Below, piece after piece: positions 48,001 to 57,000 of a DNA stretch of 64,000 nucleotides. Source of the stretch: Carcharhinus longimanus (lineage: Eukaryota); contig JASCQW010000130.1 of the NCBI GenBank assembly GCA_030264375.1, forward strand, positions 28,800,067-28,864,066, in the 5' to 3' direction. Position 1 is the stretch's first letter; every line of letters begins with the position of its first letter. The position numbers were made by a program.

Positions 48001-51000
48001 TTTTCCAAACTGGAGGCCTATGATCAGTGGTGTGCCTCAGGGATTGGTGCTGGGTCCACTGTTATTTGTAATGTATAATAACGACTTGGATGAGAATTTA
48101 GGAGGCATGGTTAGTAAGTTTGCAGATGACACCAAGACTGGTGGCAGGACCTACTCAGTTAATGGTAGGGCATTGGGNNNNNNNNNNNNNNNNNNNNNNN
48201 NNNNNNNNNNNNNNNNNNNNNNNNNNNNNNNNNNNNNNNNNNNNNNNNNNNNNNNNNNNNNNNNNNNNNNNNNNNNNGACCTCAGTGGCTCCTGCTTCCC
48301 ACTTTAATTCCTCCTATCTTGGCTCACCTCTTCATTTTCAATCTTCAGGGTGGCCAGACGGGACTGCAGCTGGTGATACCTCATGAGAAGTTCCGTTTGC
48401 ACTGGCTGCTGAGCACTCACTTGACAAACCTGAGATGAGAAGACAAGAAACAGATTCATTTAGTACACTGGTTCTTGCCACCTTCCATTGCCCCACCCTA
48501 TCCCAAGCCACCCAGATTTAATCTTGTTACATATTGCCAATTCTGGTGGGGGTGTGTGTGGTTGCCTGGGGTGGTATAGAGGTTGCCAGCTAGGGCATTG
48601 GGATCAGAATGTCACAATATATATGTTTCAAAGAGAGAGAAAGAACACAAAGAATACTAAAGCAGACACTGCTTTCCCTCAATGACATGGTTGACTATGC
48701 AATGTTCCTCAACTGGTGCGGTAAACTGCCCATACTTCAGCGTTACAGGGAGAACTTGTATTCTCACTGTAACATAATGCCAGCAGTTAGCAGTGGTCAA
48801 TTACAACATCAAACAATCCTGAGATGTAATCAGAAGAGACAGCTGTAAACAGTTCTTCGAAGTGACAATCATGTTTAAGAGTGTGTGGAAGCCAATGGGT
48901 GCCTGGGCAAACAATTTAATCAAAACTGATGAGGCACTATTGCAAAGTGTCATCAAGGGATAAATATTTCAGGAAAGGTTGGGGGCAGTAACATTCCCAA
49001 AGATAATTCTTTATCTCTTGTGCCTCATTAAAGAAAAGAAAGTTATTGTATTTATATAGCGCTTTGCATGGCCTTATGGAGTCCTAAGACAAGTTCTTAG
49101 GGTTGGAGCAGCGATAACAAAATGACACATGGCATGACTCCACAGCAATGAAATGAAGCCTGGATAAACTGATCTCAGTGTTGTAGGAGGGATAAGTATT
49201 GGGGAGAAATCTAGCAAGAGCTGTTGTACTCTCTGAATGAAGTCTGATCAAAAAACAGTAGAATCAACAACACAGCACTCCCTCAATATGACAAAGTAGC
49301 ATCAGCATAGATTTACTGCTCACATACCTGCCCTCCTAAAGTCTATGCTAACACCTCCCCACCGCCCCCAGTCCATACTGACACACTACCCACCCCCACC
49401 CCCATCCAGGCAGCACAATGGCACAGTGGTTAGCACTGCTGCTTCACAGTGCCAGGGACCTGGGTTTGACTCTGGCCTTAGGCAACTGTGTGGAGTTTGC
49501 ATATTCTCCTCCTGTCTGTGTGGGATTCCTTTGGGAGCAGCACAGTGACACAGTAATTAGCACTGCTGCCTCACAGCGCCAGGTACCGGGTTCAATTCTG
49601 GCCTTGCGTGACTGTGTGGAGTTTGCATATTTTCCCCGTGACAGCACGGGTTTCCTCTGGGTGCTCCAGTTTGCTCCCACAGTCCAAAGATGTGTGGATT
49701 AGCCATGTTAAGTTGCCCTTAGTGTCAGGGGGATTAGCAGGATAAATATGTGGGTTGCTGGGATAGCACCTGGGTGGAATTTTTGTCAGTGCAGGCACGG
49801 TGGGCCACATGGTCTCCTTCTGTACTGTAGGGATTCTATGCTTCTATAATATACTGGCTGCTGTGTTTCCTAATTTACAGTAATGTGGACACTTCAAAAG
49901 TACTGCATTCACTGTAAAGTGCTTTGTGAAAGATGCTATAGAAATGCAACTCTTTCCTCCATCAAGTTGGGGTTTAAAGTTATAAAGTTCTGACAGGAGA
50001 ATTAGCTTGGGCCAAGAAGAATTTATAAGAGTGAGGAGAGATATAGCTAAGGTCCGTGCACAGCTAGCTCTACACATACTCTCTCTGATACAAGTGTGAG
50101 ACAATCCGTCAATAAATATTTAACATTAATAATCAAAGTAAATTACACACATAAACCCAACCAGCATCTGTGCTTATATTTCCTGTCTTCACAACACATC
50201 CAGCTGAGAATATTTTTAACAATCTGTAATAGTCCTAATTACAGACTTGACATTGGAGAGTTACGATAGCAGACATCAGAAAAATTGGCAATGTTTCGGA
50301 TTTTATATTGCAATTTGAAACTCTGCAAGAAAGGCAACTATTTGCCTTTGTGAAGTGCCTTTTGACACAGTTAAACACTTGAGATGATTCACAGGAGTTG
50401 TGAACAAAATACAATTTGACACTGGGCCACTTGAGGAGATATGAGGGTTGAAAAGTGAGTTTGATGAAGTTTCAGTGACAAAACGCTGCACTTTTATCAG
50501 CAGCACAGAGTCATCCCAAGTCCTGTGTCTAGTCTGTGCTAAGTCGGTGTGGTGACAGTGGGTGTTACCATGTCTTATCCTTGGGAAGAAGCTGGGGCTA
50601 TCATGGAGTGGGAAAGGTTCTTGATTTTCCAGTGATTTCCTCTGGACGCTGCGTTGGGGTGATTTTCCAGCCGTTGGGATGATGGTGGGGGTTTGAAGGA
50701 ATTTGTTGGGGGGGGGGGGTTGCTCTGATGCCCCACTGCCAACCACGTTGGGGGAGGGACGTCTTTTAACGTCAATGTAAGACCCATCTCTGTGGAGCCA
50801 GGCTTGACGGCAACTTTAGGCCTCACCCTCAAGAATGAAGGCACAAAACATTTAATGAAACAAGCCCCCCTGCTTTTTTTTGACAAAGTATCATAAGATC
50901 TGGAGAGAAAATGTGGCTGTGTTTCTAGAGAGAAGCTTGCTGATTTTCAGTCAGACCCTGACACTTTGCCATTTTTAGGAAACTTCTGCTTTGTGTGTGT

Positions 51001-54000: not shown

Positions 54001-57000
54001 CAGCTTTGGAAAATGATAGTGACAGCCAGTCAAGGAGTAAATGTCTTTATTGTGAGGAGGATGCAAGAAGGCTTCAAGGTGATTTAGACAAGTTGAGTGA
54101 GTGGATAAACACATGGCAGAGGCAGTTCAATGTGGCTAAATGTGAAGTTGTACACTTCAGTGTGAAAAACAGAAAAGTATTATTTAAACGGTGACGTATT
54201 GGGAACTATGGATGTACAAAGGGATCTGGGTACACCAGTCAATGGAAGTGGAGAAGTAGATGCAGCAATAATTAGGAAGGCAAATTTTATACTGACCTTC
54301 ATTGCAAGAGGATTTGAGTTCAGAAGTAGAGATGTCTTACTGCAGTTAAACAATGCCTTGGTGAGACCACATTTGGATTACTGCAGTTTTCTTACTTAAG
54401 AAAGGATATATTTTCCATAGAGGGAGTGCAGAAGATAATACCAGGATTGGCAGGACTGTCCTATGAAGAGATCTTGGTTTGGTTGGGCCTGTATTCAGTC
54501 GAGTTTAAAAGGATGAGAGGAGATCTGCTTGAAACATATTAATTTTTAACATAGCTGGGCAGACTAGAAGAAGACAGGATGTTTTCCCTGGTTGGGGAAA
54601 CTAGAACCAGGGAACACAATCTCAGCATATGGGATAGACCATTTAGGACTGAGAAAAGGAAAGATTTCTTTGTTCAAAGGGTAGTGAATCTGTGGAACTG
54701 TCAACCACAGAAGGCTGTGGAGGCCAAGTCACTGAATGCATTCAAGAAAAAGATTATTTTTAAAGAATTTAATAGGATCAAAGGGTAATGGGAGAAAGCA
54801 GGAATATTGTATTGAAACTGAGGATCAGCCATGGTCATTGTGAATATCAGAGCAGGCTCAAAGGGTCAAATGGCCTACCCTGCTCCTATTTTCTACCTTT
54901 CCCTGCTCGATATGCTGTGCCTTTCTGGGATGGTCTGTGATCTCCTCTGCGCCTTACTGAACCCCCCCTCCCCCCATCCTTTGCCATCCTTCTGCCCTTA
55001 CATCTTGGAATACCGTGTACAGTTCTGGTCACCCTATTACAGAAAGGTTATTACTAAACTAGAAAGAACGGAGAAACGATTTACTAGGATGCTACCGGTA
55101 CTTGATGGTTTGAGTTATAAGGAGAGGCTGGATAGACTGGGACTTTTTTCACTGGAGCGTAGGTGGCTAAGGGGTGATCTTATAGAGATCTATAAAATAA
55201 TGAGGGGCATAGATTTGCTAGATAGTCAATATCTTTTCCCAAATGTAGGGGAGTCTAAAACTAAAGGGCGTAGGTTTAAGGTGAGAGGGGAGAGATACAA
55301 AAAGGTCCAAAAGGGCAATTTTTTCACAGACAGTGGTGAGTTTCTGGAACAAGCTGCCAGAGGTAGTAGTAGAGACAGGTACAATTCTGTCTTTTAAAAA
55401 GCATTTAGACAGTTACAAGGGTAAGATGGATATAGAGGGATATGGGCCAAATGGGGGCGATTAGGACTAGCTTAGTGGTAAAAACAGGGTAGCATTGACA
55501 GATTGGGCCAAAGGGCCTGTTTCCATGCTGTAAACCTCTATGACTCATCCATCATAGTTGTTTCAGAGAGATGTGACACTTTTTATGTCAGGAGGGAAGG
55601 TCACACTCTTGACATAAACATAAACAAAGAGAAGCAAGTGGTACGTGCAACTGGCTTTGACAAGATGGGGGGGGGGGGGTTTCCCTATTATGGAGGGTGT
55701 GACTTTGTGAACAAAATGTGTCAGATTTTATGGCCTTGCTCATCCCAAAACCATCAAATCCCACCCACGATCAACGGACCTTTCCATCATCCGATTCCCG
55801 TGGCAGGCGGGACAGTAAAATTCCAGCCAATAACTAAATGCTAAGATATACCATAACAGAAAGTCTGCCACTCACATCATGCTGGTTAATGTATGCTCTC
55901 CTAGTAACAGTCAAGATGCTTACATTCTTTGTCAGTCCAATGTTTGAATCTATTTGAATCATCAAATCAAATCAGAGGATGACTGCGACTATTAGTGATG
56001 AGGGCTATTCACTTCAAAGCTGGCTCATAACTTTGCCTGCAGTTTAACCACACGTGGCCAGCATGCATACCAGCAGTCTATGTGCCACACAAAACATTGT
56101 AGAGCACACCATCTGGGTGCTAAAGTAATGGTTTTGTTGCTCTAGAGGAACCCACCAGAGCATGCATCCAGATTTGTACTGTATTCCATAATCTGGCCAT
56201 TTTCATGGAACAGCCCTTACCAGGAATAAAGTGAATAGTTCAGGAACAGGAGGAAGGGAGAAGGCAATCGGCACCTCCTCTACAATTGAGCTAATCATGA
56301 TTGCCTCATTCGACCAATGTTCCGTTGAACACACCTACATGGTACAACAGTCACAAAGACCTTAACATCAGTCGGTTAAGAATCATCACCATGCCCTCTT
56401 GTTATTAAGGTTAAAATAAAAGTCACCAAAACCATCATTTCCAAATCAACTATATCCAATATTCCGTACCAAAAATCAGCCTTGTGCACTCTTTCAGTGC
56501 CTGTCATGCAAGTGTCTTTGCCTGACTAGTGCTCTGAAATATTGCCATGCCAGTGGCTGCAGTATAGCTGCTGGAAAACTGCTGACTTCAGTGGAATAGA
56601 CTGCAGGCTACTGTTGGGCAACTATGGGTCTGAAGAGCCCACCTTTAGACTGTACTACTTGGGCATGGGCAGTAGCAGCTTGGCTGGCAGGATGGCATGG
56701 TGGAAGCATGAAAACTATCATTTTGAGTGAGGACAAGAGACTTGAACTCCACTGAGTCCTGCTACTTCTCTCATCTAAGCATTCCTAGTAATCTGCTTAT
56801 GCACAGATTGCCGGACTGTTGTGAGATCCTGAAATCCTCTTTTGAACACGGGTATCTACAGCCATAATGGTAGTAGTCTGTCCTGCATGTCAGCCAACTG
56901 AGATTTCTTGATTTTAATCTAGGCCTCCACTGCAGAACCAAGATATTGGCTTCCATTGCAGCACAAGAAGAAGTCATCCGTCAACCATTAGGCATTGTAT

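What the first reader, a model, noticed from the sequence alone, without database searches (positions are those of the whole stretch)
48278..55000. Two intact SRGAP3 exons with their own intron inside the LRRC17/FBXL13 shared intron
Seen: minus-strand exons 53393-53614 (222 nt) and 48328-48429 (102 nt) have canonical ag/gt sites, no stops, and splice in frame into a near-perfect SRGAP3 F-BAR-end peptide. I found no other SRGAP3 exon in the window. Known: SRGAP3 is not a neighbour of FBXL13/LRRC17 in human, and partial F-BAR duplicates of the paralogue SRGAP2 (SRGAP2C) are functional in humans. Inference: the intron is retained, so this is genomic DNA rather than a retrocopy. It is either a recent partial duplication, giving three genes' sequence at one locus, or a misplaced contig. 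The left edge is an N-gap, which favours misassembly.
Basis: partly seen in the sequence, partly recalled or inferred. Interest (0 to 1): 0.8.

Follow-up and report, generated by a model that had tools for sequence, protein, structure and literature searches.

The report
Two SRGAP3 exons, probably misassembled here
Two perfectly intact exons of the nerve-cell gene SRGAP3 sit inside an intron shared by two unrelated shark genes, but they lie on a gap-bounded piece of a very fragmented draft assembly, so an assembly error is more likely than a new gene duplicate.

Summary
Minus-strand exons 53614-53393 (74 codons) and 48429-48328 (34 codons) have ag/gt sites and no stops. They encode residues 269-342 and 343-376 of elasmobranch SRGAP3. 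Identity is 74/74 and 34/34 to the nearest relative found, Mustelus asterias. No other SRGAP3 exon is in the window.

The exons lie between two consecutive LRRC17 exons, inside one FBXL13 intron. The piece that carries them (48278-62225) is bounded on both sides by fixed 100-N gaps and holds no LRRC17 or FBXL13 exon. The window has 13 N runs. In 9 of 10 cartilaginous fishes with data, SRGAP3 lies on a different chromosome-sized contig from FBXL13/LRRC17.

Zero changes in 108 codons rules out an old, decaying copy. What remains is the true SRGAP3 exons put here by assembly error, or a very recent duplication.

One result argues against simple contig misplacement. The right gap is flanked by an exact 8-nt terminal overlap (null 2.5e-4 per gap). 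That moves a likely error inside the contig, or supports a real insertion.

My odds are about 0.65 artefact and 0.2-0.25 real recent partial duplicate. If real, the fragment cannot act like SRGAP2C and is out of frame with FBXL13. Reads or a chromosome-level relative would decide.

The parts
53393..53614 (-). SRGAP3 exon, 222 nt, phase 0/0, encodes residues 269-342 (end of the F-BAR domain)
48430..53392 (-). intron between the two SRGAP3 exons, 4,963 nt, gt...ag; contains SINE-like tandem units at 49410-49847
48328..48429 (-). SRGAP3 exon, 102 nt, phase 0/0, encodes residues 343-376 (start of the Fx coiled-coil extension)
48278..62225 (.). gap-free piece (13,948 nt) that carries the SRGAP3 exons; no LRRC17 or FBXL13 exon in it; 15.9% of it matches repeats elsewhere in the window
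48178..48277 (.). left 100-N gap; its left flank is a truncated LINE reverse transcriptase (47499-48175, +, RVT_1 positions 8-156 of 205), its right flank is unrelated sequence
48278..48310 (.). repeat edge at the very start of the piece, 17 nt from the exon's donor site; a 24-nt exact copy lies at 8588-8611
   Evidence: 2 matches, 0 expected
62226..62325 (.). right 100-N gap
62218..62225 (+). last 8 nt of the piece, identical to the first 8 nt after the gap (62326-62333)
62326..62333 (+). first 8 nt of the LRRC17 exon-bearing piece, identical to 62218-62225
39981..40731 (+). LRRC17 first coding exon (residues 1-250/251), 96.4% identical to Mustelus asterias LRRC17
62809..62967 (+). next LRRC17 exon (residues 251/252-303); the intron 40732-62808 therefore encloses the SRGAP3 piece and three 100-N gaps
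37562..37614 (-). FBXL13 exon (about residues 326-343); the intron upstream of it is phase 1 and covers the rest of the window to 64000
32321..32450 (-). FBXL13 exon (about residues 381-424)

Best explanation
The two exons are the ordinary, functional SRGAP3 exons of this shark. They encode the last part of the F-BAR domain and the first part of its coiled-coil extension. Their place inside the LRRC17/FBXL13 intron is an error of a highly fragmented short-read scaffold. Shown: exon identity, exon integrity and the gap structure. Inferred: the error itself. The right-hand gap shows signs of true adjacency. The most likely form of the error is therefore a repeat-mediated false join inside the 13.9-kb piece, for instance at the LINE fragments at 53.9-55.5 kb or the repeat at 58.9-60.9 kb. 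That would fuse about 6-10 kb of the real SRGAP3 locus to real LRRC17 intron sequence. Misplacement of the whole piece by the scaffolder is the less likely form.
For: (1) 108 of 108 residues are identical to SRGAP3 of Mustelus asterias and five other elasmobranchs, splice sites are canonical and there are no stops. This is what the single constrained gene copy would look like. (2) The exons lie on a piece bounded by fixed 100-N gaps on both sides. The window has 13 N runs, 5 of them exactly 100. (3) No LRRC17 or FBXL13 exon lies on that piece. 7 FBXL13 references hit only 32243-39678. A looser search with 6 references at E <= 50 over 37001-64000 gave nothing below E 0.33 on the piece. LRRC17 hits only 39981-40730 and 62808-62966. 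(4) Only 2 of the SRGAP3 exons are present. (5) Using contig length as a proxy for chromosome, SRGAP3 and FBXL13/LRRC17 differ in 9 of 10 cartilaginous fishes. This includes the closest relative found, Mustelus, with 159.79 Mb against 85.66 Mb. (6) The flanks of the left gap are discordant. A LINE reverse transcriptase is cut in mid-domain on one side, and an unrelated repeat edge sits on the other.
Against: The right gap (62226-62325) is flanked by an exact 8-nt terminal overlap. It is the only one of 13 gaps with an overlap of 5 or more. In random pairs of window positions, 47 of 189,724 reach 8 or more (2.5e-4 per gap, about 3e-3 over 13 gaps). Superposing the overlap also keeps one reading frame open across the junction. 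This points to true adjacency of the SRGAP3 piece with the LRRC17 exon piece, so the artefact must then lie inside a gap-free stretch where I found no direct sign of a false join. The repeats inside the piece are only 66-86% like their other copies in the window, which makes them poor substrates for a false join. The piece is 84% unique within the window. Nothing I could run tests copy number or the main SRGAP3 locus.
Confidence: 0.65

Rival explanations
1. A real and very recent DNA-level partial duplication. At least 5.3 kb of the SRGAP3 locus, possibly the whole 13.9-kb piece, was copied into the LRRC17 intron, which is also an FBXL13 intron. The copy is a passive passenger. It has no start codon or promoter, it covers only residues 269-376, and it is out of frame with FBXL13. 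A near-identical copy would collapse in a short-read assembly. That would explain why it stands as its own gap-bounded piece.
For: The 8-nt terminal overlap at the right gap and the frame continuity across it. The intron is retained, so the copy is DNA-level. The exons are fully intact. LRRC17 exons lie in the correct order and orientation on both sides. The piece shares repeat families with the rest of the window, so it comes from the same kind of genome.
Against: There is no evidence for a second copy. With 0 changes in 108 codons the event must be very recent or under selection, and no coding role is apparent. The exons are phase 0/0, whereas the FBXL13 intron is phase 1. Read in that phase, exon 1 has 7 stops, the first at codon 2. 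No FBXL13 or LRRC17 protein of 15 elasmobranch models contains SRGAP-like sequence (best E 2.6). The left junction has no support. My prior, from general knowledge, is that false joins are commoner than very recent inter-chromosomal duplications in such drafts.
Confidence: 0.22
2. Whole-piece misplacement. The scaffolder inserted an unrelated 13.9-kb SRGAP3 contig between two LRRC17-intron pieces, and the 8-nt overlap is a coincidence.
For: 100-N gaps on both sides. No host exon on the piece. The left end stops 33 nt into a repeat.
Against: The 8-nt terminal overlap has an empirical chance of 2.5e-4 per gap.
Confidence: 0.1
3. A LINE-mediated retrocopy of an unspliced antisense read-through transcript (5' transduction). 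The transcript would end at the LINE 3' end at 55546, and the intron would be retained because the RNA was antisense to SRGAP3.
For: Two plus-strand LINE 3' fragments lie just right of the exons, and the second ends exactly at the family's 3' terminus at 55546.
Against: That LINE tail is old: it is 67-82% identical to its other window copies. The exons show 0 changes in 108 codons, so the ages do not match. No target-site duplication or left boundary can be seen.
Confidence: 0.02

Closest known systems
SRGAP3 orthologues of elasmobranchs (e.g. Mustelus asterias P0005, Cetorhinus maximus P0006, Heterodontus francisci P0011)
   Same: Residues 269-342 and 343-376 are identical (74/74 and 34/34). 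The exon boundary falls exactly between consecutive residues.
   Different: Only these 2 exons are present. They are flanked by LRRC17 exons rather than by other SRGAP3 exons.
SRGAP2B/SRGAP2C, the human partial duplicates of SRGAP2A
   Same: These are DNA-level partial copies of an SRGAP gene that retain introns. The F-BAR/Fx region is involved.
   Different: From passages of PMC5435084: SRGAP2C spans the F-BAR (residues 1-355) plus a truncated Fx, lacks exon 10 onwards, and acts by heterodimerising with SRGAP2A through the F-BAR. The fragment here lacks residues 1-268, any start codon and any promoter, so that mechanism is not available to it.
Repeat-mediated false joins and interleaved contigs in short-read scaffolds
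   Same: A gap-bounded piece carrying exons of a gene from another chromosome, with repeats at the piece's end and inside it, in a stretch with 13 N runs in 64 kb.
   Different: An exact 8-nt overlap of the contig ends at one junction is not what an unrelated neighbour would show.

Membership tests
SRGAP3 (orthologous exons) | Closer to SRGAP3 orthologues than to paralogues | tested here: met
   100% identity to 6 elasmobranch SRGAP3 proteins over 74 residues, against 55/73 to human SRGAP2. All named hits among the 120 listed that carry an SRGAP name are SRGAP3.
SRGAP3 (orthologous exons) | Exon ends coincide with consecutive residues of the protein; canonical splice sites | tested here: met
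   Residues 269-342 | 343-376, with ag/gt at both exons.
SRGAP3 (orthologous exons) | Lies among the other SRGAP3 exons | tested here: not met
   No other SRGAP3 exon in 64 kb. LRRC17 exons lie on both sides. SRGAP3 introns may be long, so absence on the 13.9-kb piece alone is uninformative.
SRGAP2C-type dominant-negative partial duplicate | Contains the 5' exons encoding the F-BAR dimerisation core (residues 1-355 in SRGAP2A) | tested here: not met
   Only residues 269-376 are present. Domain limits come from PMC5435084 passages.
SRGAP2C-type dominant-negative partial duplicate | Exists in addition to an intact parent gene | not testable with these tools
   No access to the rest of this assembly or to reads.
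Processed retrocopy | Introns removed | tested here: not met
   A 4,963-nt gt...ag intron is retained.
Exon shuffled into the host gene FBXL13 | Same strand and compatible intron phase | tested here: not met
   The strand is the same, but the FBXL13 intron is phase 1 (A|GT Ser codon) and the exons are phase 0/0. In that phase exon 1 has 7 stops. 0 of 11 elasmobranch FBXL13 models contain SRGAP-like sequence.
Assembly misjoin | Foreign block separated from host-gene sequence by gaps or repeats; no host exon on the same contig | tested here: met
   100-N gaps at 48178 and 62226. No FBXL13 or LRRC17 exon on the piece.
Assembly misjoin | No sequence continuity across the junctions | tested here: inconclusive
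   Left junction: the flanks are discordant. Right junction: an 8-nt exact terminal overlap argues for continuity.
Assembly misjoin | Single-copy depth and a main locus lacking these exons | not testable with these tools
   No reads, and no access to the rest of the assembly.

The most novel reading that the evidence does not exclude
A very recent, lineage-specific DNA-level duplication has placed two intact internal SRGAP3 exons, with their intron, inside the nested LRRC17/FBXL13 locus of a carcharhiniform-like shark. That would put sequence of three genes at one locus. The copy lies on the FBXL13 strand, so it could be transcribed within FBXL13 pre-mRNA and act as a poison-exon pair (stop at codon 2 in the FBXL13 frame), or be raw material for a new transcript.
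Probability: 0.22. Interest if true: 0.4.

Novelty: not a real feature. Interest (0 to 1): 0.2.

Why it matters
If it is an artefact, it matters only as a quality flag. Gene models for SRGAP3 in this assembly would then lack residues 269-376, and FBXL13 or LRRC17 models could pick up foreign exons. If it is real, it would be a second example of a partial SRGAP-family duplication outside primates. Even so, the fragment lacks the part of the protein through which SRGAP2C works, so a comparable function is not expected.

Tried and rejected
(1) Other SRGAP3 exons in the window: none.

(2) FBXL13 N-terminal exons on the piece: none, even at E <= 50.

(3) In-frame inclusion in FBXL13: rejected on intron phase and stops.

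(4) The left gap bridged by one LINE copy: rejected. The 33-nt repeat edge at 48278-48310 is not that LINE family's 3' end, and the reverse transcriptase is cut at RVT_1 position 156 of 205.

(5) An independent reference for the apparent LINE ORF2 tail that seems to run across the right gap. The search of protein representatives with 61854-62063 gave 5 weak hits (E 1e-5 to 2e-4). On tblastn these proved to be unrelated repeat proteins, not LINEs. Pfam gave nothing for either flank. The protein atlas gave no usable hit. No second copy of the motifs exists in the window. That reading therefore rests on my recollection of LINE ORF2 C-termini and on frame continuity only.

(6) tRNA-like heads for the SINE-like units: ARAGORN found none.

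(7) An ancient fifth SRGAP paralogue next to FBXL13: rejected. The family's four members are all accounted for elsewhere (PMC8851675 passages), and the peptide is 100% SRGAP3.

(8) Contamination from another organism: unlikely, because the piece shares LINE and other repeat families with the rest of the window.
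Full report
**What is there.** On the minus strand, 53614-53393 (222 nt) and 48429-48328 (102 nt) are preceded by pyrimidine-rich tracts ending in ag. They are followed by gtatgt and gtgagc. Each translates without a stop from its first base, so both are phase 0/0. The intron between them is 4,963 nt.

I searched the exons one at a time. Nothing in the window was taken for human.

**Identity of the exons.**
- Against solved structures, the exons match adjacent stretches of the SRGAP2 F-BARx: residues 279-351 (E 4e-34) and 355-386 (E 3e-8).
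- A search of the large protein set with exon 1 returned 2,008 proteins at E <= 1e-10, of which 120 were listed. The top named hits are SRGAP3 of cartilaginous fishes.
- Against 15 full-length SRGAP3 proteins, exon 1 equals residues 269-342. Identity is 74/74 in 6, 73/74 in 5, 72/74 in 1 and 66-67/74 in 3.
- Exon 2 equals residues 343-376. Identity is 34/34 in 12, 33/34 in 1 and 32/34 in 2.
- Identity to human SRGAP2 is 55/73, so the paralogue assignment to SRGAP3 is safe.
- In SRGAP2A the F-BAR is residues 1-355 and the Fx extension is 356-484 (PMC5435084, passages seen). The fragment therefore covers the end of the F-BAR and the first part of the Fx.
- tblastn of 6 full-length SRGAP3 proteins found no further exon in the window. 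All other hits had E >= 0.1.

**The surroundings.**
- LRRC17 is on the plus strand. Its first coding exon is 39981-40731, which is 96.4% identical over 250 residues to Mustelus asterias LRRC17. The next exon is 62809-62967.
- FBXL13 is on the minus strand, with exons at 37614-37562, about 33860-33760 and 32450-32321.
- No FBXL13 exon was found above 37614, even at E <= 50. So 37.6-64 kb is a single FBXL13 intron that contains LRRC17.

**The assembly.** The window has 13 N runs. Eight have sizes of 5 to 776 and five are exactly 100. A fixed 100 is, from my recollection of the NCBI/AGP convention, a join of unknown size.

The SRGAP3 exons lie on the piece 48278-62225. It is bounded by 100-N runs on both sides, and the LRRC17 intron holds a third such run at 41565. 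The piece carries no LRRC17 or FBXL13 exon.

- Its left end stops 50 nt beyond the exon and 33 nt into a repeat. A 24-nt exact copy of that repeat lies at 8588-8611 (2 matches, 0 expected).
- The opposite flank of the left gap is a plus-strand LINE reverse transcriptase cut at RVT_1 position 156 of 205.
- The repeat edge is not that LINE family's 3' end. The left junction therefore has no internal support.

**Gene order elsewhere.** The search tables give the length of the contig that carries each protein. I used that length as a proxy for chromosome. SRGAP3 and FBXL13/LRRC17 differ in 9 of 10 cartilaginous fishes:

| Species | SRGAP3 contig (Mb) | FBXL13/LRRC17 contig (Mb) |
|---|---|---|
| Mustelus | 159.79 | 85.66 |
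| Cetorhinus | 158.55 | 126.03 |
| Pristis | 115.67 | 44.17 |
| Heptranchias | 65.72 | 50.77 |
| Heterodontus | 94.62 | 75.29 |
| Mobula | 81.76 | 64.50 |
| Narcine | 257.71 | 94.86 |
| Rhincodon | 62.40 | 50.60 |
| Callorhinchus | 20.12 | 69.33 |
| Scyliorhinus torazame | 228.97 | 228.97 |

Scyliorhinus torazame is the exception. That shows only a shared chromosome, not adjacency.

The four SRGAP-family members are all assigned to the oxytocin/vasotocin-receptor paralogon (PMC8851675, passages). A relic fifth paralogue is therefore not expected, and 100% identity to SRGAP3 excludes one.

**Age.** There are no differences in 108 codons from SRGAP3 of Mustelus. LRRC17 of the same pair differs at 9 of 250 residues. 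An unconstrained copy of any appreciable age would have accumulated changes. This step is inference. Two readings remain: the constrained gene itself, or a very recent copy.

**A result against simple misplacement.** The last 8 nt before the right gap equal the first 8 nt after it.
- It is the only one of 13 gaps with a terminal overlap of 5 or more.
- In 189,724 random pairs of window positions, 47 reach 8 or more. That is 2.5e-4 per gap, or about 3e-3 over 13 gaps.
- Superposing the overlap leaves one reading frame open across the junction.
- From memory only, the plus-strand flanks look like successive parts of one degenerate LINE ORF2 C-terminus.
- I could not obtain an independent reference for that reading.

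I take the right junction as probably genuine.

**Weighing.** If the right junction is genuine, there are two possibilities. Either the piece is chimeric inside (a false join at one of its repeats, closed without Ns), or the SRGAP3 block really lies in the LRRC17 intron. I found no direct sign of an internal false join. The repeats inside the piece are only 66-86% like their window copies.

A real copy would have to be very recent. Such a copy would be expected to collapse in a short-read assembly, which would itself produce a gap-bounded piece. From general knowledge of short-read drafts, false joins are several-fold commoner than very recent inter-chromosomal duplications that carry exons.

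My estimates are:
- assembly artefact of either form: 0.65-0.75
- real recent duplication: 0.2-0.25
- LINE-mediated antisense retrocopy: about 0.02

**If it is real.** The fragment has no start codon and covers only residues 269-376, so it cannot mimic SRGAP2C, which works through the F-BAR core. It is on the FBXL13 strand, but that intron is phase 1. Read in that phase, exon 1 has 7 stops, the first at codon 2. None of 11 elasmobranch FBXL13 models or 4 LRRC17 models contains SRGAP-like sequence. It would be a passenger, or at most a poison exon.

**Literature.** A search for 'SRGAP3' with 'shark' found 12 papers, of which 10 were listed. I saw titles and the starts of abstracts only. None concerns an SRGAP3 duplication in sharks. 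Supplementary files were not consulted.

**Left unchecked.** I could not examine the rest of this assembly, read depth, spanning reads, or the orthologous introns of related sharks. No eukaryotic DNA collection was available.

Noticed in passing
window 62218-62225 and 62326-62333: An exact 8-nt direct repeat forms the two ends of the contigs flanking a 100-N gap. It is the only gap of 13 with a terminal overlap of 5 or more. It could be an unmerged contig overlap or a target-site duplication of an unassembled insertion.
   Followed up: partly
(Scyliorhinus torazame proteins P0015/P0016 and P0131): In S. torazame, SRGAP3 and FBXL13 are both reported on a contig of 228,965,009 bases, unlike 9 other cartilaginous fishes. 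This suggests a chromosome fusion in that lineage.
   Followed up: no
window 39598-39678 (-): The first 27 residues of the Mustelus asterias FBXL13 model P0127 match here (74% identity, E 7.6e-6). The site is about 300 nt upstream of the LRRC17 start codon on the other strand. It may be an alternative FBXL13 first exon sharing a bidirectional promoter region with LRRC17.
   Followed up: no
window 41565-41664 flanks: The two flanks of this 100-N gap contain the same 7-nt word and look like the same position of two diverged copies of one repeat tail. This join may also pass through a repeat.
   Followed up: no
window 58881-60863, also 1-988: A repeat with inverted terminal arms of about 330 nt (86% complementary), enclosing ORFs with a YxDD-like reverse-transcriptase motif. 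Pfam gave no hit. A related copy lies at the start of the window.
   Followed up: partly
window 49410-49847 (inside the SRGAP3 intron); copies at 35046-35349, 38604-38767, 11131-11423: SINE-like units of about 128-290 nt, two of them in tandem. ARAGORN finds no tRNA-like gene in them.
   Followed up: partly
window 8588-8611 and 48287-48310: A 24-nt exact shared word marks a repeat edge. At 8.6 kb it lies about 0.4 kb 5' of a minus-strand LINE-like element (RVT_1 at 5498-5821). The SRGAP3 piece may therefore break at the 5' end of a long LINE copy.
   Followed up: partly
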